Shown: in pieces, positions 5,959 to 27,366 of the stretch
How positions within the stretch are numbered: the first letter of the stretch is position 1
How the letters are laid out: each line of letters opens with the position of its first letter
NCBI GenBank assembly: GCA_014728245.1
Contig: WJLY01000282.1
Location: forward strand, 1-44,603
Direction: 5' to 3'
DNA: 44,603 nucleotides
Origin: Candidatus Effluviviaceae Genus IV sp.
GTDB taxonomy: Bacteria > Joyebacterota > Joyebacteria > Joyebacterales > Joyebacteraceae
Made by a program: the position numbers and the translations under genes
The notes under the pieces: generated by a model
Database searches by the model: none
What the model saw: only the letters and a program-made list of their open reading frames with translations
Told to the model about the DNA's origin: nothing

Positions 5959-5997
5959 CTCTTTCTCCCCCGCGGACTAGGAGCGAAAGCTCCCCAT

Positions 5998-7170
5998 TCA
6001 GGAGCCTTTCCTGAGCTCTTCGGTCTTCGCGTGTGACAGGGCGATAAGGTCCTTGGACCCGAGCGCCCGGCGGCCGTCGGGCCCGAGCACGGCCATCCGC
6101 TCCGTGCAGCTGTAGCACGGGTCGATGATGGCGAAGATCAGCACGGCGTCCGAGATCGACTCGCCCTTCACGCGCGGCCTGTACGACGGAATGTTGTTGA
6201 ACGTCGGCGCCCTCATCTTGTGGCGCTCCGGCATGTTGGTGCCGTTCGATCTTATGAAGTGGAAGCACTCGCCTCGCGGCGCCTCGACGTGCCCTACGCC
6301 CTCGCCCCGCGGTATCTCGCGGACCTCGTTCGCGATGGGCCCGCCGGGCAGCCTCTCGATGCACTGCTTGATGATCTTGACCGACTCCAGCATCTCCAGA
6401 AGCCGCACCGCCGCGACGGCGAGGCAATCGCCCTCGGGCCGAACGATCACGTCCCAGTCGACCTCCGAGTAGGCCCCGTAGGGCTCGTCGCGCCGCACGT
6501 CGATGTCGAAGCCCGATCCTCTCGCCGTCGGACCGAGCGTCCCGTAGCGGATCGCGTCCTCCTTCGTGAGGAGTCCGACGCCCTTCAGCCGTCCCAGGAT
6601 GACCGGATCGTCGAGGATCGCGTGGAGCAGCATCTCGGTCTGCGCCGCGAACTCGTCCATCCGCTTCAGGACGACGGGCCAGACCTCGTCGGCCACGTCG
6701 CGTCTGACGCCCCCCGGACGATACCACGCGTAGTGGTTGCGGTTGCCGGTGATCGCCTCGAGACTGTCGAGCACCGGCTCGCGGTACTTCCAGCCCCACA
6801 TGAATACCGTCCAGTACCCGAGGATGTGCCCCCCGAGGCCGACCCACAGCATGTGGCTGTGGAGCCGCTCGAGCTCGTGGACGATCGTCCGGAGGTACCG
6901 GGCGCGGTCGGTCGGGCCGATCCCGGCGATGTCCTCCATCGCGCGGCATGCGGCCCAGCTGTGCGAGGCGGAGCAGATGCCGCAGATCCGCTCCACCAGG
7001 AAGCAGTCCTGGTCGTAGGTCTTTTCCTGCGCCAGAAGCTCCATGCCTCTGTGGATGCGGCCGAGATCTATGTCAGCATCCTCGACGGTCTCGCCGTCGA
7101 CGTACAGCGAGATGTACTCCGGTTCCTCGAGGACGGGATGGAAAGGTCCGATCGGTATGAGCGTGCTCAT
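5998..7170 (-). CDS. group-4 (energy-converting) [NiFe]-hydrogenase large subunit, NuoD family
   Basis: 390 aa. The N-terminal Ni-Fe ligand motif RICGICSASH is verified in DNA at 6961-6990. The C-terminal motif DPCYSCTER is verified at 6097-6123 and is followed by a 32-aa tail. Confidence 0.9.
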   Translation of the reverse strand: MSTLIPIGPFHPVLEEPEYISLYVDGETVEDADIDLGRIHRGMELLAQEKTYDQDCFLVERICGICSASHSWAACRAMEDIAGIGPTDRARYLRTIVHELERLHSHMLWVGLGGHILGYWTVFMWGWKYREPVLDSLEAITGNRNHYAWYRPGGVRRDVADEVWPVVLKRMDEFAAQTEMLLHAILDDPVILGRLKGVGLLTKEDAIRYGTLGPTARGSGFDIDVRRDEPYGAYSEVDWDVIVRPEGDCLAVAAVRLLEMLESVKIIKQCIERLPGGPIANEVREIPRGEGVGHVEAPRGECFHFIRSNGTNMPERHKMRAPTFNNIPSYRPRVKGESISDAVLIFAIIDPCYSCTERMAVLGPDGRRALGSKDLIALSHAKTEELRKGS

Positions 7171-7599
7171 CTACTCATCCCTCCTCATGGCGTGGAAGTC
7201 GGCGGGCCGGTCGTGCGACGAGAGCAGTTTCCTCGGATCCGGATGGTCGATGAACTCCACTCCGAGAAAGTCGAAGATCTCCCGCTCGATGAAGTCGGCC
7301 GCCGGGTAGTACTTGGTCAGGGACTCGATCTTCGGGAACGGCTTGTCGAGCGTCGTCCTGATGTTGACCACCGTGCCGTCCCGGTCGATGCAGAAGTGGT
7401 ACAGAAGCTCCACGCCGGTGCTCCTGTCGCTCCCCGTCGCCGTCGCCAGCCTCCCGCCCGCCTCTTCATACATATGTCTCGTTACGGGGATCCAGTCGTC
7501 GTTCGAGACGGTGACGTACGCCCTCCTGTCGGTCCGCTCGACGATGTCGACCCTGTCCCCGAACTTGGCCTTCAGTTCCTGCAGAACTTGCTTACTCAT
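7171..7599 (-). CDS. NuoC/MbhK-like hydrogenase subunit
   Basis: NuoC-type C-terminus (ADFIEREIFDFLGVEFIDHPDPRKLL). I chose the internal ATG (MSKQVLQELKAKFG) because it follows SD GGGAGA and avoids overlap with the upstream gene. The track ORF extends to 7665. Confidence 0.85.
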   Translation of the reverse strand: MSKQVLQELKAKFGDRVDIVERTDRRAYVTVSNDDWIPVTRHMYEEAGGRLATATGSDRSTGVELLYHFCIDRDGTVVNIRTTLDKPFPKIESLTKYYPAADFIEREIFDFLGVEFIDHPDPRKLLSSHDRPADFHAMRRDE

Positions 7600-7651
7600 T
7601 ACCCCGTCTCTCCCGTTCCACGGAGCGGCGCCCTGCCGCGCGAATCCACCC

Positions 7652-8065
7652 CTATAGCTTCCCAATGAGCTTGACGATGCCGTCTATTATGGCCTCGGGC
7701 CTCGGGGGACAACCGGGAATGTAGGCGTCGACCGGTATGTGCTTGTCGACCGGCCCGGCGAAGTTGTAGCCGTCCTTGAAGATCCCGCCGGTCAGCGCGC
7801 ACGCGCCCAGCGCCACGACGGCCACAGGCCTTGGAGCCTGCTCGTACGCCTCCAGCAGCTGAGGCACGACCTTGCGCGTAACGATTCCCGAAACCAGGAG
7901 CACGTCCGCGTGCTTGACGCTCCCGACGAGCTTGATGCCGAACCGCTCCACGTCGAATCGAGGACACAGGCAGTCCAGAACCTCGATGTCGCAGTTGTTG
8001 CAGGCCCCCGCGTTCAGGTGGAAGACCCACAGCGACTTCTTGAATCCCCATTTCGTTGCGCCCAT
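7652..8065 (-). CDS. NuoB/HycG/MbhJ-like hydrogenase small subunit ([4Fe-4S] N2-type)
   Basis: 137 aa with GACNNCDIE ... ALGACALTGG ... IPGCPPRPEAI, the Cys pattern of group-4 small subunits. Confidence 0.9.
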   Translation of the reverse strand: MGATKWGFKKSLWVFHLNAGACNNCDIEVLDCLCPRFDVERFGIKLVGSVKHADVLLVSGIVTRKVVPQLLEAYEQAPRPVAVVALGACALTGGIFKDGYNFAGPVDKHIPVDAYIPGCPPRPEAIIDGIVKLIGKL

Positions 8066-8116
8066 TCGTCCCTCACTCCGTTCGGTCCGGAACCCTGCGC
8101 CCGCCGGCGCCCGCTC

Positions 8117-9055
8117 TTACAGCCCGGCCAGCGCCAGGATGATCCCGATGATCGCGAGCACCGTGACGGGTCCCCAGAAGAACCGCACCGCCTGGTCTAT
8201 TCTCACCCTCGGATTGGTGTTCTTGATGAGTATGGCGATGGTCACGATCAAGACGTACTTGACGATCGTATAGAGTAGGCCCCACCCGGTGAACTGAAGC
8301 CCTCCCCAGAAGAGCGTTATGAAGAGGACGGGAAGCGTGAACAGCATCATCGCCTGCGTCAGCTTCACGACTCCCAGTATGGGCCCCGAGTACTCCATGT
8401 GCGTCCCGTCCATCAGCTCGGTCTCCGCTTCCGGGATGTCGAACGGCGGGTACGTGAGCTTCGCCTGCATGCAGAGGACCGCAACGATGAAGGCGATTAT
8501 GCAGGACGGATGGCCGAGAAGGACGCCGTTCGCCGCCTGGTGCTCAAGTATGGCCTCGAGCTTCAGCGACATCGGCGACACCTTGGACACGGCCGTGAAG
8601 ATCGCGATGACGAACGGAAGCTCGTATGCCAGGATGAGCTTCATCTCGCGGGAGGCGCCCACGCTGGCCAGCGGGTTGGATGAAGCCGAGGCGCCGATGA
8701 TCATCCCGATCGAGGGTATGGTGAGAAGGTAGATGACCGCGATCAGGTCCCCGACGAAGCCTACTCCCTGCATGTTGGCCAGCCATAGCATCATCGACAC
8801 CACCGTCACCGCGGCCAGGCCGGCCATCGGCGCCAGCAGGAACCCCGTCCTCTTGGCGCCCTCGGGAATCACGATCTCCTTGCCCAAGAGCTTCAGGATG
8901 TCGGCGAAAGGCTGGTACCACGGAGGGCCCACGCGCCACTGGACCCTGGCGGACACCTTCCTGTCCACCCAGGTCGTGAGCAGCCCGACGACCGCGGTGA
9001 ACAGGAGCCCGGGGAATATCAGGAAGTAGATAAACATGTTCAGTGTCGATGCCAT
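8117..9055 (-). CDS. NuoH/HycD/MbhM-like membrane subunit
   Basis: 312-aa polytopic protein with a NuoH-like N-terminal part (VDRKVSARVQWRVGPPWYQPFADILKLLGKE). Confidence 0.9.
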   Translation of the reverse strand: MASTLNMFIYFLIFPGLLFTAVVGLLTTWVDRKVSARVQWRVGPPWYQPFADILKLLGKEIVIPEGAKRTGFLLAPMAGLAAVTVVSMMLWLANMQGVGFVGDLIAVIYLLTIPSIGMIIGASASSNPLASVGASREMKLILAYELPFVIAIFTAVSKVSPMSLKLEAILEHQAANGVLLGHPSCIIAFIVAVLCMQAKLTYPPFDIPEAETELMDGTHMEYSGPILGVVKLTQAMMLFTLPVLFITLFWGGLQFTGWGLLYTIVKYVLIVTIAILIKNTNPRVRIDQAVRFFWGPVTVLAIIGIILALAGL

Positions 9056-9104
9056 CCTGTTACCTCTCCATTGGAGTCCGTTCCGCGTGCGCAGAAGCGT
9101 GAGT

Positions 9105-9587
9105 CTAGCGCTTGCGGCGCACGGTCTTCTCCACGGTGCGGGCGCCCCTCATGGGCTTCCCCTGCTGGTCTTCGATGTCGCTTATGTCCTCGAACGTGCG
9201 AGCGCCCGACACGCAAGTCCCCGCGCACATCGTGTCCTTCCCCTCAAGCGTCCGGAAGTAGCAGAGGTCGCACTTGGGGTACGTGTGGCGCGTGTTGACG
9301 AGGTCTATGGCGCCGAAAGGACAGGCCTGGGCGCACGAGGTGCACGCGCTGCACTTCAGGTTGCTCCTTATCACCAGCCCGTCGTCCCGCCTCTTGATCG
9401 CCTCCTGAGGACACGCCGCCTCACAGAGCGCCTGCTCGCAGTGCCGGCAGTTCATTTGCAGAACGGTGTTCGTCAGGACCGTCGACGCCTCCAGATAGTC
9501 CTGCTGGTTATGCGAGTAGAAGCAGGCGGCGATACAGCTCCTGCAACTGATGCAGCGTCCGTAGTCGAGGATGTTTCTCTTGTTCAT
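9105..9587 (-). CDS. HycB-like polyferredoxin (four Cys-cluster motifs)
   Basis: 160 aa with four Cys groups: CISCRSCIAAC, CRHCEQALCEAACP, CSACTSCAQACP and CDLC...CAGTC. SD GGGGGAG precedes the ATG. Confidence 0.85.
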   Translation of the reverse strand: MNKRNILDYGRCISCRSCIAACFYSHNQQDYLEASTVLTNTVLQMNCRHCEQALCEAACPQEAIKRRDDGLVIRSNLKCSACTSCAQACPFGAIDLVNTRHTYPKCDLCYFRTLEGKDTMCAGTCVSGARTFEDISDIEDQQGKPMRGARTVEKTVRRKR

Positions 9588-9644
9588 CCAGCTCCCCCGG
9601 AGTTGCTCGTCGCGGGCGGCGCCCCGGCGGCCGCCGCCTGAGTG

Positions 9645-11336
9645 CTAGCCTTCTGTAGTTACCTTCGCTCCCCTCGAGGACACGTCGAACCATCTGGTCT
9701 CCGGGTTCGGTGTCCACGTGAGAAGCCCTCGCGCGTCCGGCACGAAACTGGGTATCGCCACCAGCATGCCGGGCATCCTGTCGGTCACTGTCGCGAGGAT
9801 CTTCGTCTCTCCGCGGTCCGTGCCGACGGTGACGCTCGCGCCCTGTTCGATGTCGAGGCTCTCGGCGGCCTCCTCCCCGACCCATATCTCGCAGTAGGGG
9901 GACTGCTGCTGCGCGAAGGCCATTCGTCCGGTTATCGTGCCGTCCCACCTGTGCATCGGGTTCGTCTTCTCGACGAGCGTCACGCCCTCGGCGCCCGAGG
10001 CGCCGGCCAGCCTCTTGAGCTCCGCGTCGACGTCGATCTCGAGCGGCGGATGCTCCGCCGCGGGTTCCCGGGTCGCGAGGTTGGCGCCGAGCTCCCGGGC
10101 GATGGCGCCCAGCATCTCCGAGACCGGCGTGGCGTCGCCCTGCGGGTCCTTCAGCGGCTCGATATTGGTCGTGATGGAAAGCGACGCGGAGTAGCTGCCG
10201 ACGAACTCGGTCCAGACCGACTGCGGAAGCCCGACGTCGCTGTGCTTGGTCGTGTCGTTCTCGAATATCGACGACGCGGCTAGAAGCTCCAGCCCCTCGA
10301 GCGTCTCGGCCGAGACCGCGCCCGGGTATAGCTGCACGAGATCGGGGCCGAAAACCAAAAGCCCCTTGATCTTCCCGGCCGCCACGTCCTTGAGCATCCC
10401 GGGCAACGTCCTTCCGGACCCTATCCTCCTGAAGGCGCCGATGGCGTTCCCGCCCCGGAAGAAGGGCGCGTACTTCCCGCCCACGGCCGCGGCCAGCGCC
10501 GATGCGAGCTTGCCCGTGAGATACCCGGCAGCCGAATCGCCCAGTCTCGATGACACGAGCACGACGACCTTCTCGTGCTCCTTGATGTTCCTGGCGATGC
10601 TCGAGAGCTCGGCCTCCGGCATGCCGGCCGCCTCCGCGGCTTCCGAAACGGAGATCGCGGGGGCGCCCTTCGCGTTCAGCGCCGAAAGAATGCCGGCCAG
10701 GACGACCGGCTCGGCGCCGGGCGCCGTCGCGATGTGCCTGTCGGCGAACCAATCGGTGTTCGTGCGGAACGGGTTCACCGTGTAGATCCGGTTCGAGCGC
10801 GATCTGTGGCGGGCCTCTATGATCCGCTTCGCCAGACACGGGTGCCCCCAGAAGACGTCACCTATCATCACGAAGCAGTCGGCGTCGTCGAGATCCTCCG
10901 GTGTCGCGTCGCCGGCCCCTCCGCCCATGAGCTGAGGCAGGTCGTTGCCGTCGTAAGCGACGGCCACGTTCCTGGTGCCGAGCGCGTCCGCGGCGAAGGC
11001 CGCGACCGCGTCGTAGTCCTCGTTCGAAAGCTCCGTGCCGACGACTACGCCGATGGCGTCACCGCCCGCACCCTCCTTCAGTTCGGAGATCTTGCCCGCG
11101 GTCCTGTTCACGCCGCTCGCCCACGTCACCCTGCGCCTGTTCACCGTGGCAGCGATGAACCTCCTGGGATGCTGGAGCAATTCTATGTTGTAGTGACCTC
11201 GGACGCAGAGCGATCCGAGATTCTGCCTGGCGTCCTTGTCGAGATCGATCCTCACGGGGACGCCCGCGTCCATCTCCATGCCGTATCCGCACTGGAGAGA
11301 GCAGAAGAGACACGACGCCTTCTTTATCTCTGGCAT
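9645..11336 (-). CDS. molybdopterin-oxidoreductase (MopB) family protein, formate-dehydrogenase-like but short and apparently lacking the Sec/Cys-His active-site pair
   Basis: 563 aa. N-terminal CX2CX3C...C [4Fe-4S] motif (CLFCSLQC...CVRG). MopB core (DADCFVMIGDVFWGHP). C-terminal beta-barrel-like end (ASVTVGTDRGETKILATVTDRMPGMLVAIP). Confidence 0.8.
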   Translation of the reverse strand: MPEIKKASCLFCSLQCGYGMEMDAGVPVRIDLDKDARQNLGSLCVRGHYNIELLQHPRRFIAATVNRRRVTWASGVNRTAGKISELKEGAGGDAIGVVVGTELSNEDYDAVAAFAADALGTRNVAVAYDGNDLPQLMGGGAGDATPEDLDDADCFVMIGDVFWGHPCLAKRIIEARHRSRSNRIYTVNPFRTNTDWFADRHIATAPGAEPVVLAGILSALNAKGAPAISVSEAAEAAGMPEAELSSIARNIKEHEKVVVLVSSRLGDSAAGYLTGKLASALAAAVGGKYAPFFRGGNAIGAFRRIGSGRTLPGMLKDVAAGKIKGLLVFGPDLVQLYPGAVSAETLEGLELLAASSIFENDTTKHSDVGLPQSVWTEFVGSYSASLSITTNIEPLKDPQGDATPVSEMLGAIARELGANLATREPAAEHPPLEIDVDAELKRLAGASGAEGVTLVEKTNPMHRWDGTITGRMAFAQQQSPYCEIWVGEEAAESLDIEQGASVTVGTDRGETKILATVTDRMPGMLVAIPSFVPDARGLLTWTPNPETRWFDVSSRGAKVTTEG

Positions 11337-13570: not shown

Positions 13571-13612
13571 GAACGAAACCCCGACCCCCGGAAGATGGCA
13601 CCGGGTCGGGGA
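13571..13612 (-). terminator. putative rho-independent terminator downstream of hflK
   Basis: On the minus strand: CCCCGACCCGG-loop-CCGGGGGTCGGGG followed by TTTCGTT. It lies about 80 nt after the hflK stop and before the hydrogenase operon. Confidence 0.5.
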
Positions 13613-13692: not shown

Positions 13693-14745
13693 TCACTCGT
13701 TCGGAGTCAGGAACCTGAGGTCGAGCGTGCTGTCGCCTTCCCTGGGATCGAGCACGTACTTGCGTACGTTCTCCAGCACCTTCTCGAGCGCCTCGAGATA
13801 GAGACGCTCCCTGGTCGCCGTGGGGGCGTTCCGGTACTCGGCGAACACTGCCGTGAACCTGGCCGCCTCGCCCTCCGCCCGGGCGACCTTCTCGGAACCG
13901 TAGCCCTCCGCGGACTCAACGAGACCGGCCGCCTCGCCGCGGGCCGTCGGGACGACCCGGTTAAGATACCCCTCGGCTTCCTGCACGATCCTGTTGCGAT
14001 CCTCGCGCGCGCTCGCCACCTCGCGAAAGGCGTCCGCGACCTCGCGGGGAGGATTGGTCTCCTGAAGGTGCGCCGCCACTATCTCTATCCCCGCGCCGTA
14101 GCGATCGAGCACGCGCTGCGCGCGTTCCTTGACAGTCGTCGCGATCTCAACCCTAGCTGTCGTCAGGACGTCCTCGACCGGCATCGTCCCGACCTTCTCC
14201 GTCAGGACCGACTCGCCCACCTTCCTCACCAGCCAGTGAGGTTCCTCGCATGCGAACAGGAAGTCCGTCGGGGACTTGACGACATACTGGATCAGAAGCT
14301 GGATCTCCATGATATTCTCGTCGCCCGTCACGAACTGAGCCTCGCGGGCCTCTGGGCTGATCCCGCGGAGCCGGTCGACGATCTTGTACCCCACGCTCAT
14401 CCTCTTGATCGAGGTCACCTGCGGCGTGTCGACCGCATCGACAGGCCACGGGATGCGGTAGTGGATCCCCGGCGCGACCGATTCCCGGACGACGCGGCCG
14501 AACCTGCGCACCACTCCGCGCTCGTCCGGCTGTACGACGTAGATGCCCGAGAGGAGGTACATCGCGACGACCGCCAGCGCCGCGAGCCTGGAGATGCCAC
14601 GGAGCCTTCGGAGTCCCTCCGACATGTCGGACTTGACCGACGTCGTCGCGGCCCTGCGGCTCCTCGACTCATCGTCGCGGCGGACGGGCTCTTCGCCTTC
14701 GGGACCCGCGTCCGGGTCGCTGTTTCTGCGCTCGGGCTCTTCCAC
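13693..14745 (-). CDS. hflK: HflK-type SPFH/band-7 protein
   Basis: 350 aa (GTG start in the track; a later ATG is possible). Single TM then an SPFH domain (GIYVVQPDERGVVRRFGR...FVTGDENIMEIQLLIQY...ARGEAAG...AEGEAARF). Confidence 0.85.
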   Translation of the reverse strand: MEEPERRNSDPDAGPEGEEPVRRDDESRSRRAATTSVKSDMSEGLRRLRGISRLAALAVVAMYLLSGIYVVQPDERGVVRRFGRVVRESVAPGIHYRIPWPVDAVDTPQVTSIKRMSVGYKIVDRLRGISPEAREAQFVTGDENIMEIQLLIQYVVKSPTDFLFACEEPHWLVRKVGESVLTEKVGTMPVEDVLTTARVEIATTVKERAQRVLDRYGAGIEIVAAHLQETNPPREVADAFREVASAREDRNRIVQEAEGYLNRVVPTARGEAAGLVESAEGYGSEKVARAEGEAARFTAVFAEYRNAPTATRERLYLEALEKVLENVRKYVLDPREGDSTLDLRFLTPNE

Positions 14746-14750: not shown

Positions 14751-15632
14751 CTAACGTTCCTTCCTGTTCAGGAGATCCAGAAGGTCCGAGTCGGACGAGA
14801 GGATCACCGTCGTCTTCTCGTCGAGGAACTTGCCGTAGGATTCCAGTTTGCGCGTGAACTCGTAGAAGTCCGGGTCCGCGCTGAAGGCCTCCGCGTAGAC
14901 CTTCGCCGCCTCCGCGTCCCCGCGACCTCGGATCGTCTCGGCCTCGCGGTAGGCCTCCGCCAGGATCTCCTGGCGCTCCCTGTCCGCCTCGGCCCTGATC
15001 CTGATCGCCTCCTCCTCGCCCTCCGACCTGTAGCGCATAGCGATCCTGCTTCGCTCGGCCCTCATCCTGTCGAACACGCTCTGCTTGTTCTGCTCAGGAA
15101 AGGCCAGTCGCTTCATCCGGACCTCGGATATGTCTATCCCGAAACTGGCGCTCGCTGTCGCGCTGCACCCGGCGGTCACCGTGTCCATGATCGCCGCGAT
15201 CTTCATCTGCTCTGGATCGACCGAGATCAAGGCGTGCAGGGGGTAGCGGCCGAGGGCGGCGCCGACCTCCGAGGCCACTATATCGGCCATCCTGACCTCG
15301 GCGCCGGCGCGGTCGGTCACGGTCTCCAGGAAGCGTCTCGGGTCCTGGATCTTCCACGCCACGAACGTGTCGGCGACGATGTTCTTCTTGTCGTTCGTCA
15401 GAAACTCGGTGGGCTTGGGATCGTAGACAAGGAGCCTCTTGTCGAAGAACCTCGCCGCCTGCACGGGCTGCGGCATCTTCCAGTGCAGCCCGGCTTCCTC
15501 CACCACCCTGACCGGATCCCCGAACTGAGTGACGATGGCCAGCCGCGTCTCGTCGACGACGAACAGCGACGTCCTCGCCACGAGAAGCGCCACCACTATC
15601 ACAGCCACAACGTAGAACCAGCGTTTATCCAT
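14751..15632 (-). CDS. hflC: HflC
   Basis: 293 aa, collinear with E. coli HflC as I recall it (SLFVVDETRLAIVTQFG...RMRAERSRIAMRYRSEGEEEA...GDAEAAKVYAEAFSADPDFYEF). Confidence 0.9.
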   Translation of the reverse strand: MDKRWFYVVAVIVVALLVARTSLFVVDETRLAIVTQFGDPVRVVEEAGLHWKMPQPVQAARFFDKRLLVYDPKPTEFLTNDKKNIVADTFVAWKIQDPRRFLETVTDRAGAEVRMADIVASEVGAALGRYPLHALISVDPEQMKIAAIMDTVTAGCSATASASFGIDISEVRMKRLAFPEQNKQSVFDRMRAERSRIAMRYRSEGEEEAIRIRAEADRERQEILAEAYREAETIRGRGDAEAAKVYAEAFSADPDFYEFTRKLESYGKFLDEKTTVILSSDSDLLDLLNRKER

Positions 15633-15692: not shown

Positions 15693-17420
15693 CTACTCCA
15701 TCTCCGCGGCGGTCCCGAGAGATTTGTCTATCATGCGGATGTCGTACCCGCGAAGATCGACGTCGGTCGTTACCACGAACTTCTTGAGGTCGCGAAGCAG
15801 CGTCTCCATCTTCTCTATGTAGAGGCGCGTCTCGGTTACCTCACGGGCCCGGCGGTACTGGGCCGCGAGCGCCATGAACCTGGCCGAGTCCCCGATCGCG
15901 CGGTCTACTCTCTCGCTCTCGTAGGCCTCGGCCTCTATTACCGTTCGCTTCGCCTCGCCGCGCGCCTTCGGCAGAGTCTGGTTCTTGTAAGCGCGCGCCT
16001 CGTTTATGATCCTGTTCTTGTCCTCGCGGGCGCTGGCGACGTCCCGGAACGACGGCACGACCTCGAGCGGCGGATGGATATCCTGGAGTCTTACGCCCAC
16101 GATCTCGACGCCGGCGTCGGCGAAGTCGATCATCTCCTGAACGCCGCCCGTGAGGACCTGCTCGAGCGAGTCGCGTTTCGCGGTCAGCACATCCTCAAGC
16201 GCAAGCGCACCCACGACCTGTCCCATGACCGTCTCGCCCGCAAGCTTGACGAGCGCCCCCGCGTCCGAGACGTTGAACATGTAGTCGAGAGGCCTCGACA
16301 CCCGATAGAGCACGACCGCGTTCATGTCGACGATATTCTCGTCACCGGTCAGCCGGAGCGCCTCCTCGGGCCGCTTCTCATACGTGCCCGCGGCGTGCCT
16401 GCTCTCCCACAGCGTGGCGTAGAACTCGGCGGCCACCTCGGTCACGGCCCGCGGCTCGTCCCTCGTCTCAAAGCCGATCTCGACCCGCCGGACGAGCGGG
16501 ACGTCGACCACGGTGACCCGGTCCACGGGCCAGGGCGCCTTCAGGTGAACGCCCGGCGCTGTCGGCTCGCCCACGTTCCTGCCCCATCTGCGCACAACGC
16601 CGACGCGGCCCGGCCCCACGAAGTAGAGTCCCGTTAGGAGCCAGAGCGCGACGAGCACGAGGACGCCGGTCGCCGCGAGGGCTCTTCTGCGACGCGGGTC
16701 TCTCAAGGAGGAGACCACGTTCCGGCCCAGCCGGCGCATCCCGGCGCGCTCGAGCCACGACAGCGCCACTCGCGCCGGCGGCCACGAAGACAGGGCCGCG
16801 GCCGACGCGGTCCGCGTCGCCGTGCCCTCGCGAAGGCCCCTGACGGAAGCGAGCACGATCATGAGGCCCGACTCCACGATGAACAGCGCGACGACCGCGG
16901 CCGCGATCCTGTCCAGCTCGATTCCGATGGCGTGTCCCATGAGTCCGACCACGACGGCGCCGGTGGTCCACGTATCGATTCTGGAGTGATGCCCGTCGGC
17001 GATGAGAGAGAGGCTTCGCGTCTCGCGTCCCACGTGGAGCTTGTACTGCGCCGCGTAGTAGGAGACGAGCGCGGCGACGAGGCTGCCGCCGATGGCGACC
17101 GGCAGGTTGGTGATCGCCGCTCCCGCGGCCGCCGATACGCGCTGGAAGATCTCGACCGCCGCCCAGAGTATGAGTCCGCCGACGATGAGCGCCACCGCGT
17201 TCTCGATGAGGGCCAGGTTGCGGCTGTTCTCCCTGCGGGAGATGTGCGCTCCCGCCCATACGACGCTCGAGGCCACGATGTCGGAGCCGGAGTGCCACGC
17301 GTCGGCCAGGAGGGCCAGGCTGCCGGAGAGGGTCGCGAGGAGCACTTTCAACGCCACGAGACCGACGTTGATGCCGACCGATACGAGTGCGGTTCTCTCG
17401 ACTCGATCCAAGCTCGCCAC
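15693..17420 (-). CDS. fusion protein: cation-diffusion-facilitator (CDF) transmembrane domain + HflK-type SPFH domain
   Basis: Residues 1-195 have six predicted TMs with CDF metal-site motifs (LLADAWHSGSD in TM2, IADGHHSRID in TM5). Residues 250-575 have one TM plus an HflK-like SPFH domain (GLYFVGPGRVGVVRRWGR...LTGDENIVDMNAVVLY...ARGEAKR). The start is GTG at 17420, or TTG at 17411 behind AAGAGGTG. Confidence 0.8.
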   Translation of the reverse strand: MASLDRVERTALVSVGINVGLVALKVLLATLSGSLALLADAWHSGSDIVASSVVWAGAHISRRENSRNLALIENAVALIVGGLILWAAVEIFQRVSAAAGAAITNLPVAIGGSLVAALVSYYAAQYKLHVGRETRSLSLIADGHHSRIDTWTTGAVVVGLMGHAIGIELDRIAAAVVALFIVESGLMIVLASVRGLREGTATRTASAAALSSWPPARVALSWLERAGMRRLGRNVVSSLRDPRRRRALAATGVLVLVALWLLTGLYFVGPGRVGVVRRWGRNVGEPTAPGVHLKAPWPVDRVTVVDVPLVRRVEIGFETRDEPRAVTEVAAEFYATLWESRHAAGTYEKRPEEALRLTGDENIVDMNAVVLYRVSRPLDYMFNVSDAGALVKLAGETVMGQVVGALALEDVLTAKRDSLEQVLTGGVQEMIDFADAGVEIVGVRLQDIHPPLEVVPSFRDVASAREDKNRIINEARAYKNQTLPKARGEAKRTVIEAEAYESERVDRAIGDSARFMALAAQYRRAREVTETRLYIEKMETLLRDLKKFVVTTDVDLRGYDIRMIDKSLGTAAEME

Positions 17421-19900: not shown

Positions 19901-22630
<2,730 letters not shown>

Positions 22631-22634
<4 letters not shown>

Positions 22635-23797
22635 TCCCGCACGACCTCTCCCTCGTTGACGTGGTAGCACGCCACGCCCTCTCCCTCACCCGCCCCGGGC
22701 GCCAGCTCCCGCGCCGCCCTCGCCGTCGAGGTCACGAACGCCTGCCCGTGGCGCCCCATGTGCGAAACGAGCGCCGCCCCCCTCTCGTTGTCCAGCTCCG
22801 ACAGCACGTCGTCCAGGAGCACGACGACGCCCCTGCCGTCAGCATCGAGCACCGCGGCCTCCCCCAGCTTGAGGGCTATCGCTGCCGTCCGGTGCTGTCC
22901 CTGTGACCCGAAGGTCCGCAGCAAACGCCCGTCCAGCTTCACCTCGAGATCGTCGCGGTGCGGCCCCACCAGCGTGAAGCCGCGGCGCTTCTCGTCCTCC
23001 AGGCCGTCGCCCAGGGCGCGCGCGAAACGCTCCCGCGCCTCGCCGGGCTCGATCGCCTCCTCCTCCCCCGTCGCTGCCTCCCCAGGTGATCTTCCAGCGT
23101 CTCCGAGAGGGACAGAGCTCCTGTAGGCGAGAGTCAGCGTGTCTCCTCCCGATATCTCGGCGTGAAAGCGCGAGACCTTCTCCGCGAGTCGCGGGATCAT
23201 CGCGGCCCTGCCCGCGATGACGCGTCCGCCGTAGTCCGCCACCTTGCCGGACCACGCCTCGACTACCCTGTCCGACTCCTCGTCGGGCGTCCAGTTCAGG
23301 AGCGCTTCGTTTCTCTGTCTGAGCGCCCGCCTGTAGCAGGAGAGCGCCGCCAGATAGCCCGCGTCGATCTGACACAGCGTCATGTCGACGAGCCTGCGCC
23401 TGGCGTCCGGCCCGCCCTTGGTTATCCACGTGTCCTCCGGGCAGAACCACGCCACGCGCAGGTGACCCACGAGATCGGAGAGCCTGGCCAAAGGCTCGCC
23501 GTCGAGAGACACCTCCTTGCCCGCGCCGCGTCTGTACCTGAGCACGATCGTCCGGGCGCCGCCGTCGCTCTCGATGACGTCTCCCCCGACCCCGAATCCC
23601 GCATCCCCCCAGCGCGCGACCTCCGCGTCGCTCGCGCTCCGCAGCGACCGCGCCACCGCAAGATAGGAGATCGCTTCGAGAACGCTCGTCTTGCCGGATC
23701 CGTTCGGTCCGTACAGGAAGTTCAACCCGTTCTCGAACCCGATCGCCAGACTGCGGTAGTTTCTGAAGCTGGTGAGCCGGAGTTCCCTCAACCACAC
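22631..23797 (-). CDS. recF: DNA replication/repair protein RecF
   Basis: 388 aa with a GTG start. N-terminus LRLTSFRNYRSLAIGFENGLNFLYGPNGSGKTSVLEAISYL carries the Walker A motif. Confidence 0.95.
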
Positions 23798-23840
23798 TGG
23801 GTTCTCTCCACACTGTCTTCCCGGTCCGCCGCCGGGCCGG

Positions 23841-24962
23841 TCAGGAGCTGAGCCTGAGCGGCATCAGAAGACACGTGTACTCCCGGTCTTCTGCCTCCTC
23901 CGCCGCCTTCACGATCGCGGCGCCGACGGGAGAACCGAGGACGAAGAGAACGTCGTCACCCTCGATGTGCTTGAGGACCTCCAGAACGTAGTTGGCGTTG
24001 TATCCCACCTCGAACTTGTCCGAGGTGAAACGGCCGGGAAGCTCCTCCTTCGCCTCGCCTACGTCCGGAGTGGAGACGGAGAGCTGCACCTTGTTCTTGG
24101 CCAGCGTGAGACGAACCTGATGCGTCATAGCGTCGGCCAGAATCGCCACGCGCCGCACCGCCGCGACAAGTTCCTCCCTGTCGACCGAGAGTTCCTTGTC
24201 GTTGTCGGTGGGTATCACCTGTCTGTAGTTCGGGAAGGGTCCCTCCAGAAGGCGCGAGTTGATTGTCGTGCTGCCGATGAAGAACGCGACGTGGTTGTCC
24301 TTGACCGAGAGCTTCACCTCGTCCTCGTCTTCGGACGAGATTGTCCGCACGACCTGCGAGAGCGCCTTCGGCGGCACGATCATCGACTTCCCCGCCAGCG
24401 GCTTGTACTTGCCGCCGACGCGGTACGTCGCCAGCCTGTGTCCGTCCGTAGCCGTCATCCTCATGTCATCGGCCGAGAACTCCCAGTACGCGCCGTTCAG
24501 CGACGGCCTGGTCTCGTCCTTAGACGTGCAGAAGCTGACCTTCTCCACCATCGAGCCCAGCACGGATGCGTCTACCGAGAACGCGCTCGCCGGGTCGCTC
24601 TTGGGCAGAGTCGGGAACTCCTCTGTAGGAATTCCGACGATCTTGAATCTGCTCTTCCCCGAGGTGATCGAGATCTCCTCGCCCTCGGCCGAGACGCTGA
24701 CGGTGTCGGTGCCCAGCTCTCTCACTATCTCGGCGAACCTCTTGGCCGGCAGCGTGACACTCCCCCCCGACTCGACCTCCGAGGCGGCCTTCGTCGTGAC
24801 CGTCATGTCCAGATCGGTGGCCGTAAGGGTGATCGACGCGGACTTCTCCTGCGCCTCCAGAAGGAAGTTGGCCAGAACAGGAAGCGTCGTCTTCGGGGAC
24901 ACGACAGCGAGCACTCTCTGAATCGCCTTCTCCAGTTCGTGCCGGTCGATCGTGAAAGTCAT
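23841..24962 (-). CDS. dnaN: DNA polymerase III beta sliding clamp
   Basis: Starts at MTFTIDRHELEKAIQRVLAVVSPKTTLPVLANFLLEA (ATG 24960-24962). The longer track ORF to 25010 is rejected. Confidence 0.95.
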   Translation of the reverse strand: MTFTIDRHELEKAIQRVLAVVSPKTTLPVLANFLLEAQEKSASITLTATDLDMTVTTKAASEVESGGSVTLPAKRFAEIVRELGTDTVSVSAEGEEISITSGKSRFKIVGIPTEEFPTLPKSDPASAFSVDASVLGSMVEKVSFCTSKDETRPSLNGAYWEFSADDMRMTATDGHRLATYRVGGKYKPLAGKSMIVPPKALSQVVRTISSEDEDEVKLSVKDNHVAFFIGSTTINSRLLEGPFPNYRQVIPTDNDKELSVDREELVAAVRRVAILADAMTHQVRLTLAKNKVQLSVSTPDVGEAKEELPGRFTSDKFEVGYNANYVLEVLKHIEGDDVLFVLGSPVGAAIVKAAEEAEDREYTCLLMPLRLSS

Positions 24963-25163
24963 GGATGAACCTCCCGCGGGAAAACCGCGACACGCCCGCT
25001 CGAGACACACTGCGACGGCTGCAAGGCGCGCCGCCTCAGGCGCTCATTATATGGGGGGCGCCTGCAGGCTGCAAGGCAAATGGGGACCCGAAATCCGACT
25101 CTTAGCGAACGTTGTTCCGAAGGGCGAAGAGCGCGGCGAGCGCGCCCGCCCTTTGCTGTTACC

Positions 25164-25193
25164 TCTATATATATAGATACTCAGTAGTAGTAG
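25164..25193. other. AT-rich candidate DNA-unwinding element
   Basis: tctatatatatagatactcagtagtagtag has only 8 G/C in 30 nt, within an otherwise very GC-rich window. It contains a (TA)n run and a TAG x3 run. Confidence 0.4.
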
Positions 25194-25375
25194 CAGGGGC
25201 TGTGGGTATGTTGACAGCGCGGGCCGTGACGCGAACAACCTGTTGCGGTTCGCGCGCTTGCGTTTCCGCGCGCGATCGTTGTTCTGTGAACAACCGGAGT
25301 GGAAGCCGGGGATATCATCGGCCGCTTTCCACAGCGGCGCGGCGGGCGGCCCGAGGGTGCACTACTCCCCCACAC

Positions 25376-25384
25376 TTATCTACA
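25376..25384 (+). promoter_or_regulatory. DnaA box (TTATCTACA, 1 mismatch to TTATCCACA)
   Basis: Direct reading of the sequence. Confidence 0.5.
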
Positions 25385-25518
25385 GGCTGTTCACGGCTCC
25401 GTGTTGACAGTCGCGTCCGGCCGCCCCGCCGGCGCGGGGGTTCTCGTCCTGCCGCTTTGGCAGGGGCGACGATCGGGTGGTCAAGGAGCTTTTGTCTGAA
25501 ATGGGTCGGGGCGGGTAG

Positions 25519-26871
25519 TCAGCCGGCGCGGAGCACGCGGCGGAGATTCTCAATGTCGCGCTGAACCTGGCCGCCGTCCTCCACGAGACCGGTCACCTTC
25601 CTGTGCGCGTGCAGGACCGTGGTATGGTCGCGGCCGCCGAACTGCTCCCCTATCTGGGCGAGAGACAGGTGCGTGAGTTCGCGCGCCAGGTACATCGCGA
25701 CCTGGCGGGCGAGCGCGATCTGGCTCGCGCGTCCGCGCGCCTTCATCTTCTCTACGGGGACGCCGTACGTTTCGGCAACCGCCTGCTGGATGCGGGCCAC
25801 GGAGATCGGTCCCTTGGGCTTGCCGAGGAACTCGGAGAGCACCTCGCGGGCGAGCTCGACCGTGATCTCGCTGCCGGTGAGACTTGAGAAAGCGAGGAGC
25901 CGGACGAGCGATCCCTCCAGCTCGCGGATATTCGACGTCACGCTATTAGCGACCAAATGTATGACGTCGTTGGGAATCGAAATCCCGTCCAGCTCCGCCT
26001 TCTCGTGGAGTATGGCTATCCTGGTCTCGAGGTCCGGGGGTTGTATGTCGGTGACGAGACCGGATTCGAAACGAGAGACGAGTCGCTCCTCGAGGGTCGA
26101 TATCTGCTTGGGCGGCCGGTCGCTCGTCAGCACGATCTGCTTGTGCGCCAGGTAGAGCGCGTTGAACGTGTGAAAGAACTCCTCCTGCGTGCTCTCCTTG
26201 CCGGCGAGGAACTGCACGTCGTCGATCAGGAGGATGTCCTTGCTTCTGTATTTGTCCCTGAACTCGAGCGTCGTTCCCCGCTGGATCGACGTGATCAGCT
26301 CGTTCATGAACGTCTCGGAGGACACGTAGTAGATCGACAGGCCCGGGCGCTGCTCGCGCACGTAGTTGCCGATCGCCTGCATCAGGTGTGTCTTTCCTAG
26401 CCCGACACCGCCATGGATAAACAGCGGATTATATGTTTCGGCAGGGGCCTCCGCCACCGCCATAGACGCAGCCTGGGCAAAGCGGTTACTTGCTCCGACG
26501 ATGAACGTCGAAAAGGTATACCGCGGGTTGAGTTGGCACTCATCGGCCGCTGCTATGGTCAGGGGCGGAGGTTCCACCCGCCGGGTCGAAACCGGCTCGT
26601 ACTGGTCGGGGCGCCTGTGGGCGACCTGGAACTCGGGCTCGATCGACTCCCCGGCGTGTTCCTCCAGGGCCCTGCAGATCAACCCCTTGTAGTGCTCCTC
26701 CAGCCAATCCGCAAAGAAGCGGTTGGGCACCTGTATCTTAAGCGACTCGTCAGTCAGCTCCAGCCCTCGCGTCGGCTCAAACCAGGTCTGGTAGCTCTGG
26801 CTCTCGGTCTCGTCGCGTATAGTGTCGAGGCATCGGGACCATAGGTCCGAAGCGGTCATTACTGTACGCAT
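25519..26871 (-). CDS. dnaA: chromosomal replication initiator DnaA
   Basis: AAA+ core (FIHGGVGLGKTHLMQAIGNY, LLIDDVQFLAGKESTQEEFFHTFN) and a domain IV helix-turn-helix at the C-terminus (HTTVLHAHRKV). The start is ambiguous among GTG 26880, ATG 26871 and ATG 26859. Confidence 0.95.
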   Translation of the reverse strand: MRTVMTASDLWSRCLDTIRDETESQSYQTWFEPTRGLELTDESLKIQVPNRFFADWLEEHYKGLICRALEEHAGESIEPEFQVAHRRPDQYEPVSTRRVEPPPLTIAAADECQLNPRYTFSTFIVGASNRFAQAASMAVAEAPAETYNPLFIHGGVGLGKTHLMQAIGNYVREQRPGLSIYYVSSETFMNELITSIQRGTTLEFRDKYRSKDILLIDDVQFLAGKESTQEEFFHTFNALYLAHKQIVLTSDRPPKQISTLEERLVSRFESGLVTDIQPPDLETRIAILHEKAELDGISIPNDVIHLVANSVTSNIRELEGSLVRLLAFSSLTGSEITVELAREVLSEFLGKPKGPISVARIQQAVAETYGVPVEKMKARGRASQIALARQVAMYLARELTHLSLAQIGEQFGGRDHTTVLHAHRKVTGLVEDGGQVQRDIENLRRVLRAG

Positions 26872-26872
26872 G

Positions 26873-26881
26873 TTATCCACG
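26873..26881 (+). promoter_or_regulatory. DnaA box TTATCCACg at the dnaA start
   Basis: Perfect 8/9 match, overlapping the possible GTG start codon of dnaA. Confidence 0.6.
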
Positions 26882-26894
26882 GCATGTTAACAAG

Positions 26895-26903
26895 TTATGC
26901 ACA
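26895..26903 (+). promoter_or_regulatory. DnaA box TTATGCACA (1 mismatch)
   Basis: It lies 14 nt beyond the previous box in the dnaA leader. A third related site, AGTGCATAA, is at 27000-27008. Confidence 0.5.
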
Positions 26904-27289
26904 GCGGGAGAAATTCGGCGTATTTCGTCGATATGGGAAGTAGAGGCGAGCAAGAACCCGAACAAGCGAGCTCGCAGTATCTACAATGCCCCTCCCCAAA
27001 GTGCATAACTCGGTAACGTTAGATCTTAAAGTAAGTTAGCGCCCGGTCGTCCGGGTTTGTTGTTGTGGCGTCGGCAGGTTACGTTCTGAGGTGTGCCTCA
27101 AGATGCGAGTACCGGGCTCTTGGTGCGTTCCCGCCTGCGCCCTTATCAACAACCCGTGTGACGGCGGCGAATGCTAACACGGGGCTCGCGCAGGGTGCAA
27201 GAGTTTTTTCGCGTCGCAGGAGACTTTTTTCGGGGGTGGATCGCGAGGGGAGCGAGGGAAGGCCATGTGGCGGGCGGGGGAGAATCGGG

Positions 27290-27318: not shown

Positions 27319-27366
27319 TAGTGGTTCGTTGCGAGTAAACCTTCGAGTCAGGAATGCAGGGGTAAC

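What the first reader, a model, noticed from the sequence alone, without database searches (positions are those of the whole stretch)
15693..17420. Cation-diffusion-facilitator transmembrane domain fused to an HflK-type SPFH domain
One uninterrupted 575-codon ORF encodes a six-TM CDF core with both metal-site motifs (DAWHSGSD in TM2, DGHHSRID in TM5). It lacks the usual cytoplasmic CDF C-terminal domain. Instead a basic linker, a seventh TM and a full HflK-like SPFH/coiled-coil domain follow. With six TMs plus one, the SPFH domain would face the periplasm, as in HflK. HflK/HflC are known to assemble a cage around the Zn-dependent protease FtsH. A metal transporter built into that scaffold is an architecture I have not seen described. 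It could deliver or remove metal within the FtsH compartment, or place the transporter under HflKC/FtsH quality control.
Basis: partly seen in the sequence, partly recalled or inferred. Interest (0 to 1): 0.65.

Follow-up and report, generated by a model that had tools for sequence, protein, structure and literature searches.

The report
Metal exporter fused to HflK cage subunit
This gene joins a zinc-type metal export pump to a subunit of the HflK/HflC membrane cage, and it belongs to a conserved but undescribed three-gene cassette, found in many bacterial phyla, in which an unrelated metal pump can take the same place.

Summary
ORF 15693-17420 (-) encodes a six-TM cation-diffusion-facilitator (CDF) core with no cytoplasmic C-terminal domain, an Arg-rich linker, a seventh TM helix and a complete HflK SPFH/coiled-coil body. 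It is not an assembly artefact. More than 100 protein clusters, at least 185 reference species and about a dozen phyla carry it, and independent metagenome contigs cover the junction without indels. The transport-site residues H43/D47/H145/D149 are invariant. (1) The fusion is always the first gene of a cassette: fusion, then HflC, then a second plain HflK (all 80 loci). (2) A sister family has a P1B heavy-metal ATPase in place of the CDF, fused to the same HflK clade in the same cassette. (3) Neighbours recur: a PpiD/PrsA-like foldase, P1B ATPases and two-component systems. My best reading is a metal exporter tethered to an HflK/HflC-type assembly, which localises metal export to an SPFH-bounded membrane domain. 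Delivery of zinc to the FtsH active site is topologically unlikely, because that site is cytoplasmic. No paper in the searched library describes this architecture, and databases label it simply HflK. I rate it a new variant of known kinds. Its function is inferred, not shown.

The parts
15693..17420 (-). Whole fusion ORF (K1): CDF transmembrane domain + linker + TM7 + HflK SPFH/coiled-coil. 575 codons from GTG 17420; the likely true start is TTG 17411 (572 aa).
16827..17420 (-). CDF six-helix transmembrane domain (aa 1-198). Transport site A is H43 (17292-17294), D47 (17280-17282), H145 (16986-16988) and D149 (16974-16976).
   Evidence: PF01545 and TIGR01297. The site residues are invariant in 26 and in about 80 homologs. 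YiiP/ZnT fold match. ZnT1 H43/D47 align to H43/D47 (weak E-value).
16698..16826 (-). Cytoplasmic Arg-rich linker (aa 199-241) that replaces the CDF C-terminal domain. Its sequence is variable and the model confidence is low.
   Evidence: 10 K+R in this stretch; pLDDT <50 at 202-217; poorly conserved in alignment A1.
16635..16697 (-). Seventh transmembrane helix (aa 242-262), which corresponds to the single membrane anchor of HflK.
   Evidence: AF2 helix 242-262; hydropathy peak at 254-264; aligns to the E. coli HflK TM region 80-100.
15696..16634 (-). Periplasmic HflK body (aa 263-575): SPFH1, SPFH2, coiled coil and C-terminal tail.
   Evidence: TIGR01933 211 bits; E. coli HflK 7vhp/7vhq E about 1e-34; Foldseek HflK, QmcA, stomatin, prohibitin and erlin cages.
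16359..16481 (-). Subfamily-specific 40-residue insertion (aa 314-354) with invariant W338, H342, Y347 and K349 and near-invariant E339, R341 and G345. It follows R311/R312, which align to the FtsH-contacting R141/E142 of E. coli HflK.
   Evidence: Present in 49 of 80 CDF fusions and in the four ATPase fusions read. Absent from the window's HflK2, from E. coli HflK and from canonical paired HflKs. FtsH contact residues come from PMC13220708.
14751..15632 (-). hflC (293 aa), second gene of the cassette.
   Evidence: TIGR01932 218 bits, cut-off 134.4. Present directly downstream in every locus with enough flank.
13693..14745 (-). Second, canonical hflK (K2, 350 aa), third gene of the cassette. 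It starts 5 nt after the hflC stop.
   Evidence: TIGR01933 252 bits. Conserved third position in loci L002-L080, L081-L084 and L089. Forms a separate K2 clade.
13579..13593 (-). Terminator-like hairpin with a T-run about 100 nt after hflK2; possible 3' end of the transcription unit.
   Evidence: Consensus scan only, weak evidence.

Best explanation
The ORF is a genuine, widely conserved chimeric subunit. An N-terminal zinc-type CDF metal/proton antiporter core (six TM helices, HD-HD transport site, no cytoplasmic regulatory/dimerisation domain) is tethered by a cytoplasmic linker to the membrane anchor and periplasmic SPFH/coiled-coil body of an HflK paralog (K1). K1 is the first gene of a three-gene cassette, K1-HflC-K2. 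The three products most likely co-assemble into an HflK/HflC-type ring or cage on the periplasmic face of the inner membrane, with the exporter modules held at its membrane rim. The pump moves a divalent transition metal (most likely Zn2+; Co, Cd, Fe or Mn are not excluded) from the cytoplasm to the periplasmic side, inside or at the edge of the membrane patch bounded by the SPFH assembly. The scaffold takes over the oligomerising role of the lost CDF C-terminal domain and confines export to a defined microdomain. That couples export to whatever the cage organises: membrane and envelope protein quality control or maturation, with or without FtsH. SHOWN: identity of both domains, an intact and invariant transport site, 7-TM N-in/C-out topology by prediction, strict cassette conservation, and interchangeability of CDF with a P1B heavy-metal ATPase. 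INFERRED: co-assembly with HflC and K2, direction and identity of the transported metal, involvement of FtsH, and the physiological purpose.
For: (1) Both domains pass curated thresholds and fold searches. (2) H43, S44, D47, D142, H145 and D149 are unchanged in every homolog that covers them (78-80 of 80), and S146 in 79 of 80, down to about 30% identity across about 12 phyla. This implies selection on metal binding and transport, not only on membrane anchoring. (3) All 80 reference-genome loci keep the same order, fusion-HflC-HflK2, wherever the flank allows. C and K2 are often translationally coupled (5-nt gap here, 4-nt overlaps elsewhere). (4) A second large family has a complete P1B heavy-metal ATPase in place of the CDF (TIGR01525 540-587 bits, CPC motif, DKTGT). 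It is fused to the same K1 clade with the same insertion and sits in the same cassette. In an NJ tree these K1s nest inside the CDF-fused K1 clade, and C and K2 branch in parallel, which indicates a pump swap within one inherited module. Metal export from the cytoplasm is the obvious property the two unrelated pumps share. (5) Recurrent neighbours are a separate P1B ATPase (9 loci), a PpiD/PrsA-like parvulin foldase (25 loci) and two-component systems. On the Aquibium oceanicum plasmid the cassette lies next to a PPIase, a ZntA-like ATPase, PCu(A)C, SCO, DsbB and a thioredoxin-domain protein. (6) Topology: 17 against 1 K+R. (7) Precedents from the literature. In P. aeruginosa the Zur-controlled operon PA2439-PA2435 combines three HflK/HflC-family genes with the P1B ATPase HmtA (PMC4542158, PMC8531726, PMC11761036). 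In M. tuberculosis PacL scaffolds cluster P1B ATPases into 'effluxosomes' (PMC13043812). A human stomatin cage has been solved bound to aquaporin-1 (PDB 9zd2).
Against: There are no experimental data for any member. Co-assembly of K1, HflC and K2 is inferred only from synteny and homology. CDFs work as dimers, but in an alternating K/C ring neighbouring K subunits are separated by an HflC. The CDF modules would therefore have to meet through the roughly 45-residue linker, and that geometry was not modelled. Metal specificity cannot be read from the sequence: the best NCBIfam equivalog hits (MamB, MamM, MntE, Cdf31, ZitB) are all far below their cut-offs. The only expression data on a possibly related system (P. 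aeruginosa) show induction by zinc shortage, and HmtA is described there as an importer. That fits a detoxifying efflux role poorly. In Eisenbacteria the cassette sits directly after gyrB-gyrA with a 34-nt gap and no metal-related neighbours. The short subfamily may represent an independent fusion.
Confidence: 0.6

Rival explanations
1. One reading: the pump serves FtsH. Either it supplies or removes zinc for the FtsH metalloprotease enclosed by the cage, or it is fused to HflK so that FtsH/HflKC can degrade it as a regulated substrate.
For: The SPFH part is an HflK by a curated model. E. coli HflK is the subunit that binds FtsH (PMC13220708). The R185 equivalent is kept as K392 (R in most homologs). 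MgtA, cited in that paper as a P-type ATPase, is listed there among known FtsH substrates.
Against: The FtsH zinc site is in the cytoplasm, while the cage lumen is periplasmic and CDF and P1B pumps export from the cytoplasm. No ftsH is linked to the cassette in the window or in 80 loci. The FtsH-contact patch R141/E142 is R/R here and is followed by a 40-residue insertion, so the interface is remodelled. A covalent tether on every copy is an odd way to make a protein a conditional substrate.
Confidence: 0.15
2. The system serves metal acquisition or metal economy under shortage rather than detoxification. One option is that the pump runs inward, as reported for P. aeruginosa HmtA. The other is that it exports scarce zinc in a protected way to load envelope or secreted metalloproteins, with the cage acting as a loading chamber next to a PpiD/PrsA-like foldase.
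For: The P. aeruginosa hmtA-hflK/C operon is bound by Zur and induced 6-14-fold by zinc shortage. Foldase, DsbB, thioredoxin, PCu(A)C and SCO neighbours are maturation factors rather than resistance pumps. In Eisenbacteria the cassette is in housekeeping-like surroundings.
Against: Homology between the P. aeruginosa genes and this clade was not tested. To my knowledge all characterised CDFs export from the cytoplasm. The Aquibium neighbour is a ZntA-like ATPase with several metal-binding domains on a conjugative plasmid, and I read that as a typical resistance island. The maturation-related neighbours are lineage-specific and are absent from the window.
Confidence: 0.15
3. The CDF module is a metal sensor rather than a working pump. 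Metal binding at site A would change the conformation of the tethered HflK and so gate or remodel the cage.
For: The regulatory C-terminal domain is lost and the site residues are invariant. HflK/C cages are now known to open and close (PMC13220708).
Against: The alternative partner is a full P1B ATPase with intact actuator, phosphorylation (DKTGT) and nucleotide-binding domains. That is costly machinery for sensing alone. The complete six-helix CDF core is conserved, not only the binding site.
Confidence: 0.07
4. Artefact or decay: the fusion results from a frameshift or assembly error joining separate CDF and hflK genes, or the CDF part is a degenerate remnant used only as a membrane anchor.
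For: One long-read contig (L087) has a 218-aa CDF ORF overlapping the HflK ORF by 53 nt.
Against: >100 independent clusters, >=185 species and >=110 of the top 150 clusters at 50% identity have the intact fusion. Independent contigs cover the junction without indels. The transport site is invariant. L087 looks like a frameshifted fusion, not a natural split.
Confidence: 0.02

Closest known systems
E. coli HflK/HflC-FtsH complex (PDB 7vhp, 7vhq, 7wi3, 9cz2, 9paw)
   Same: The C-terminal 310 residues are an HflK by the curated HMM and by fold. They have one membrane anchor followed by periplasmic SPFH1/2 and a coiled coil, and an HflC gene lies directly downstream.
   Different: The short disordered cytoplasmic N-terminus of HflK is replaced by a six-TM metal transporter. 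There are two HflK paralogs per HflC. A 40-residue insertion sits next to the residues that contact FtsH in E. coli. There is no evidence here for FtsH binding.
CDF transporters YiiP/FieF, CzcD/ZitB and mammalian ZnT (SLC30)
   Same: The six-helix transmembrane fold and the TM2 HxxxD plus TM5 HxxxD tetrahedral site are shared. As far as I recall the literature, this HD-HD configuration is typical of zinc-type CDFs.
   Different: The cytoplasmic C-terminal domain is absent. In canonical CDFs it mediates dimerisation and metal sensing. The family does not reach any equivalog cut-off. From memory, CDFs without this domain have been noted in sequence surveys; my literature search on this point returned nothing useful.
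P1B-ATPase-HflK fusion family (e.g. P0183, P0192, P0206, P0225)
   Same: It has the same K1 clade with the same insertion and HPP histidine, the same downstream HflC and K2 genes, and the same 'even number of TM helices plus one' logic.
   Different: The pump is an ATP-driven heavy-metal ATPase (CPC motif, no HMA domain) instead of a proton-coupled CDF. It is found in Armatimonadota, Acidobacteriota and Planctomycetota rather than Eisenbacteria. I found no description of it either.
P. aeruginosa PA2439-PA2435 operon (HflK-family, HflC, HflC-family, PA2436, P1B ATPase HmtA)
   Same: It links three SPFH genes with a heavy-metal P-type ATPase in one operon, and it is the only such system with expression data (Zur-bound promoter, induced by zinc shortage) (PMC4542158, PMC8531726, PMC11761036).
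   Different: The pump and the SPFH proteins are separate polypeptides. HmtA is described as an importer. Sequence relationship to the present clade was not tested, because no PAO1 sequence was available in these tools.
M. tuberculosis PacL/Ctp 'effluxosomes'
   Same: Both involve a membrane scaffold that clusters and stabilises heavy-metal exporters into platforms (PMC9374683, PMC13043812). This is a functional analogy.
   Different: From the paper's abstract, PacL proteins are small, single-pass and cytoplasmically oriented, which suggests they are not SPFH proteins; I did not test this. The association is non-covalent.
Eukaryotic SPFH cages that hold channels or transporters (stomatin with aquaporin-1, PDB 9zd2)
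   Same: An SPFH cage engages a polytopic transport protein in the patch of membrane it encloses.
   Different: The stomatin cage lies on the cytoplasmic face. Its client is a separate protein, not a covalently fused one.

Membership tests
Cation diffusion facilitator (CDF, PF01545 / TIGR01297) | Six-helix transmembrane domain that matches the family profile above the curated threshold | tested here: met
   PF01545 81.6 bits (cut-off 26.6), profile 2-197/198; TIGR01297 89 bits (cut-off 82.35). Foldseek to YiiP, rmsd 2.7-4.4 A over 192-208 residues.
Cation diffusion facilitator (CDF, PF01545 / TIGR01297) | Transport site A: (H/D)xxxD in TM2 and HxxxD in TM5 | tested here: met
   H43xxxD47 and H145xxxD149, unchanged in every one of the 80 aligned sequences that covers them.
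Cation diffusion facilitator (CDF, PF01545 / TIGR01297) | Cytoplasmic C-terminal domain (ZT_dimer fold) that mediates dimerisation and regulation | tested here: not met
   No such Pfam hit at E<=0.01. The TIGR01297 match stops at model position 204 of 285. TM6 is followed by the linker, TM7 and the SPFH domain.
Cation diffusion facilitator (CDF, PF01545 / TIGR01297) | Homodimeric metal/proton antiport activity | not testable with these tools
   Needs reconstitution, or at least multimer modelling; only single-chain prediction was available.
HflK (TIGR01933) | Match to the equivalog model above the trusted cut-off | tested here: met
   211 bits against a cut-off of 159.4, aa 266-552; E. coli HflK E about 1e-34.
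HflK (TIGR01933) | One membrane anchor with the SPFH/coiled-coil body on the periplasmic side | tested here: met
   By prediction only: TM7 at 242-262 preceded by an Arg-rich cytoplasmic linker, and 17 against 1 K+R.
HflK (TIGR01933) | Adjacent, co-oriented hflC partner gene | tested here: met
   hflC at 14751-15632 (TIGR01932 218 bits), conserved in all loci with enough flank.
HflK (TIGR01933) | Binds FtsH through periplasmic contacts (E. coli R141, E142, R185) | tested here: inconclusive
   The equivalents are R311, R312 and K392. The charge of the second residue is reversed and a 40-residue insertion follows. The evolutionary distance is too great to judge.
HflK (TIGR01933) | Forms a 24-mer alternating cage with HflC | not testable with these tools
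   No multimer modelling or biochemistry was available.
P. aeruginosa hmtA-hflK/C (Zur-regulated) cluster | Orthology of the SPFH genes (K1-type insertion, K-C-K order) and a Zur-type operator | not tested

The most novel reading that the evidence does not exclude
The K1-HflC-K2 assemblies are dedicated extracytoplasmic metal-handling compartments. A pump built into the cage wall (a CDF or a P1B ATPase, interchangeably) fills the enclosed periplasmic lumen or membrane patch with a transition metal. Newly exported or membrane proteins could then be metal-loaded, or shielded from the wrong metal, as they fold, in cooperation with PpiD/PrsA-like foldases. That would give an SPFH cage a defined chemical cargo. 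It would be a bacterial counterpart of ZnT-dependent zinc loading in the eukaryotic secretory pathway.
Probability: 0.2. Interest if true: 0.85.

Novelty: new variant of a known kind. Interest (0 to 1): 0.68.

Why it matters
What SPFH cages (HflK/C, stomatin, prohibitin, flotillin, erlin) actually do for the proteins they enclose is an open question. In this family the client is hard-wired to the cage and can be exchanged between two mechanistically unrelated metal exporters. That says the relevant property is metal export at the scaffold. It offers a defined, genetically simple system in which to ask what an SPFH assembly contributes to a transporter. Candidate contributions are oligomerisation in place of the lost CDF cytoplasmic domain, confinement of the exported ion, turnover control, and coupling to envelope protein folding. 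Cultured carriers exist: Aquibium oceanicum B7 (plasmid), Desulfosporosinus spp., Anaerospora hongkongensis DSM 15969 and Blautia/Lachnospiraceae isolates. The finding also gives a rationale for the unexplained Zur-regulated hflK/C-hmtA operon of P. aeruginosa. On the practical side, current annotation ('FtsH protease activity modulator HflK', 'Cu+-exporting ATPase') hides the chimeric nature of hundreds of proteins.

Tried and rejected
(1) Assembly or frameshift artefact: rejected.

(2) Split CDF and hflK genes as a natural 'Rosetta stone' counterpart: only one case was found (L087). It is a long-read contig with a 53-nt ORF overlap, most likely a frameshift. The long tblastn spans turned out to be the neighbouring HflC and K2 genes, not split genes.

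(3) High-scoring unfused HflKs (P0250, P0252): these sit in ordinary hflK-hflC pairs and lack the insertion and the HPP histidine, so they are ordinary HflKs.

(4) A periplasmic histidine cluster (H292, H342, H449) as a metal hand-off site: this could not be tested because model coordinates are not exposed. By secondary-structure position the three residues lie in different subdomains, and the short subfamily lacks H342 and H449. The idea is left open and is weak.

(5) ftsH linkage: none in the window or among conserved neighbours.

(6) Plasmid search for an ATPase-HflK fusion or adjacency: none found. The plasmid search with the CDF fusion gave one useful hit, in Aquibium.

(7) phmmer of the CDF part against PDB sequences: only a weak ZnT1 TM2 match. 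The fold search was needed to confirm the domain.

(8) Literature searches for the fusion and for CDFs without the C-terminal domain: nothing relevant.

(9) Direct comparison with P. aeruginosa PA2437-PA2439: not possible with the available collections.
Full report
OBSERVATION. The minus-strand ORF 15693-17420 (575 codons, GTG) exists as described. Pfam reports PF01545 Cation_efflux over aa 12-196, covering the whole profile, and PF01145 Band_7 over aa 268-478. NCBIfam reports TIGR01297 (CDF) at 89 bits, above its cut-off but covering only model positions 2-204 of 285. It also reports the HflK equivalog TIGR01933 at 211 bits against a cut-off of 159.4. No CDF C-terminal-domain family was detected. 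Both quoted motifs are present. An AlphaFold2 model (mean pLDDT 73.5) shows six TM helices, a low-confidence helical linker, a seventh TM helix at 242-262, SPFH strands and a 70-residue coiled-coil helix. Foldseek matches the C-terminal part to E. coli HflK cage subunits (7vhq_E E=2.6e-16; 9cz2) and the N-terminal part to YiiP, ZnT1/3/7 and SLC30A10 transmembrane domains (rmsd about 3-5 A over about 200 residues). Predicted cytoplasmic loops carry 17 Lys+Arg and periplasmic loops carry 1. This supports N-in, seven TM helices and a periplasmic SPFH domain. The likely true start is TTG 17411, preceded by GAGGTG, where most homologs begin.

NOT AN ARTEFACT. A search of 5.8 billion proteins returned more than 100 clusters at 90% identity with both Pfam domains, 557-608 aa long and 38-75% identical. 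They come from NCBI, JGI, ENA and Logan, and the closest are named Candidatus Eisenbacteria. An exhaustive profile search of 1.84 billion cluster representatives found at least about 110 full-length fusions among the top 150. A scan of one genome per GTDB species found 185 species with a relative. Contigs from three of the four independent metagenome runs (sediment, microbial mat and an unspecified metagenome) cover the domain junction with no indels.

THE TRANSPORTER PART IS UNDER SELECTION. H43, S44, D47, D142, H145, S146 and D149 are invariant in 26 diverse fusions. In 80 aligned sequences (the window plus 79 from reference genomes, down to about 30% identity) they are unchanged wherever the sequence covers them, apart from one S146T. 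H43xxxD47 in TM2 plus H145xxxD149 in TM5 is the tetrahedral site A of CDFs. From established knowledge of the family, the HD-HD version is the one found in zinc-type members (ZnT, CzcD, ZitB). ZnT1 H43/D47 align to the same positions (weak E-value). Metal specificity nevertheless remains open, because every NCBIfam equivalog hit is far below its cut-off.

A CONSERVED THREE-GENE CASSETTE. Downstream on the same strand lie hflC (14751-15632; TIGR01932 218 bits) and a second, canonical hflK (13693-14745; TIGR01933 252 bits). The latter starts 5 nt after the hflC stop. In all 80 reference loci the same order holds wherever the flank is long enough: fusion (K1), HflC, HflK2. By record title the carriers include Eisenbacteria, Zixibacteria, Gemmatimonadota, Desulfobacterota, Myxococcota, Nitrospirota, Actinomycetota, Hydrogenedentota, Omnitrophota, Planctomycetota, Hydrothermota and many Bacillota. 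Cultured carriers include Desulfosporosinus, Anaerospora, Blautia and Lachnospiraceae strains. There are two subfamilies. A long one (49 of 80, including the window) has a 40-residue insertion (aa 314-354; W338, H342, Y347 and K349 invariant) and His449 in 'QDxHPP'. A short one of about 510 aa lacks both. The window's K2, E. coli HflK and ordinary paired HflKs also lack them.

A SECOND PUMP IN THE SAME SLOT. Among the profile hits were proteins of about 1,000 aa that matched only from the linker onward. They are complete P1B heavy-metal ATPases: PF00122 plus PF00702, TIGR01525 540-587 bits against a cut-off of 346, the Cd/Zn-type model scoring above the Cu-type model, a CPC motif, DKTGT, and no HMA domain. 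Each is fused C-terminally to an HflK (TIGR01933 192-236 bits) that carries the same insertion and HPP histidine. Three that I examined, from different sources, are each followed by two Band_7 genes of about 295 and about 310 aa. A dedicated search showed that all 120 listed hits have this architecture. They come from Armatimonadota, Acidobacteriota and Planctomycetota, several on 4-8 Mb contigs, and are variously named 'Cu+-exporting ATPase', 'cadmium-translocating P-type ATPase' or 'HflK'. In a neighbour-joining tree of SPFH domains, HflC, K2 and K1 form separate clades. The ATPase-fused K1s nest within the long CDF-fused K1 clade, and their HflC and K2 partners branch in parallel (crude method). 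The cassette is therefore inherited as a unit, and the pump was exchanged within it.

SURROUNDINGS. In the window the cassette follows dnaA-dnaN-recF-gyrB-gyrA, with a 34-nt gap after gyrA, and precedes Fe-S/flavin/molybdopterin oxidoreductase and complex-I-like genes. No ftsH, foldase or P1B ATPase lies within the 44.6 kb. The gyrA neighbourhood is specific to Eisenbacteria (22 loci). In the short subfamily, 25 loci have an upstream co-oriented protein of about 815 aa with a C-terminal parvulin domain (PpiD/PrsA-like). Nine loci have a separate P1B ATPase, and 17-19 have histidine kinase or response regulator genes. On a conjugative plasmid of Aquibium oceanicum B7 the cassette lies between a two-component system and a PPIase, a ZntA-like ATPase, PCu(A)C, SCO, DsbB and a thioredoxin-domain protein.

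LITERATURE. No paper in the searched library describes a CDF-SPFH or P-type ATPase-SPFH fusion. Three lines of work are relevant. First, in P. aeruginosa the operon PA2439 (HflK family)-PA2438 (HflC)-PA2437 (HflC family)-PA2436-PA2435 (hmtA, a P1B ATPase) is induced 6-14-fold in a znuA mutant. Its promoter is shifted by Zur, and the proteins rise under zinc depletion (PMC4542158, PMC8531726, PMC11761036). I could not test whether these genes belong to the clade described here. Second, M. tuberculosis PacL proteins organise P1B ATPases into 'effluxosomes' (PMC13043812). Third, E. coli HflK alone contacts FtsH, through R141, E142 and R185, and the FtsH zinc peptidase is cytoplasmic (PMC13220708). 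By the alignment these residues correspond to R311, R312 and K392. The K1 insertion starts two residues after R312, so it sits on the surface that touches FtsH in E. coli.

INTERPRETATION. The best-supported reading is a metal exporter tethered to an HflK/HflC-type assembly built from K1, HflC and K2. The domain identities, site conservation, predicted topology, cassette conservation and pump interchangeability are shown. Co-assembly, export direction, the metal, FtsH involvement and the purpose are inferred. Two unrelated machines that share little beyond exporting transition metals from the cytoplasm occupy the same position. This argues that export at the scaffold is the selected property. 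It also argues against a mere anchor, or a sensor that does not transport. The scaffold plausibly replaces the lost CDF cytoplasmic domain as the oligomerising element. Whether the system detoxifies or supplies metal to the envelope is open. The P. aeruginosa data and the foldase/Dsb/SCO neighbours favour supply. I read the Aquibium plasmid context and the ZntA-like neighbours as pointing to resistance instead.

VERDICT. It is a new variant of known kinds (HflK/C cages and CDF/P1B exporters). It is widespread, currently mis-annotated, experimentally untouched and testable in cultured strains. Interest 0.68.

Noticed in passing
window 22631-37624, especially 25376-27151: The window spans the chromosomal replication origin region. 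dnaA (25519-26880), dnaN, recF, gyrB and gyrA lie on the minus strand. yidC, mnmE, mnmG, rsmG, parA and parB lie on the plus strand. The cumulative GC-skew minimum is near 24-25 kb. DnaA-box-like 9-mers are enriched (13 against 1.9 expected), with a cluster at 26873, 26895 and 27143 just upstream of dnaA.
   Followed up: partly
window 19901-22351 (-), repeats at 22153-22277: The gyrB ORF carries an N-terminal extension of about 190 residues that is rich in Lys, Ala and Gly (histone-H1-like), with 18/54-nt tandem repeats. Upstream ORFs of similar size (about 821 aa) recur in 18 related Eisenbacteria loci, so the extension may be conserved. The start codon was not verified.
   Followed up: partly
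L043-L080 (25 loci, e.g. L071:2599-5046); L089:13140-14834: A large protein (about 815 aa; 564 aa in Aquibium) with a C-terminal parvulin PPIase domain (PpiD/PrsA-like) is encoded next to the cassette: immediately upstream and co-oriented in the short-subfamily loci, and downstream in Aquibium. Its N-terminal region of about 600 residues has no family match.
   Followed up: partly
P0183, P0192, P0206, P0225; loci L081-L084: P1B heavy-metal ATPase-HflK fusions of about 1,000 aa form a large family of their own in Armatimonadota, Acidobacteriota and Planctomycetota. They are annotated inconsistently as Cu+-exporting ATPase, cadmium-translocating ATPase or HflK.
   Followed up: yes
P0190 (799 aa): A CDF-HflK fusion with an extra multi-TM N-terminal region of about 280 residues that has no family match.
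   Followed up: no
window 1091-11336 and 38829-43088: There are complex-I/Mrp-like antiporter subunits, a NiFe-hydrogenase-like/49-kDa subunit and a molybdopterin oxidoreductase on the left. On the right are V/A-type ATPase subunits (I, E, C/AC39).
   Followed up: no
L087:2824-4591: A long-read metagenome contig has the CDF part (218 aa) and the HflK part (387 aa) in separate ORFs that overlap by 53 nt, followed by the usual two Band_7 genes. It is probably a frameshifted fusion, either a sequencing error or a pseudogene.
   Followed up: partly
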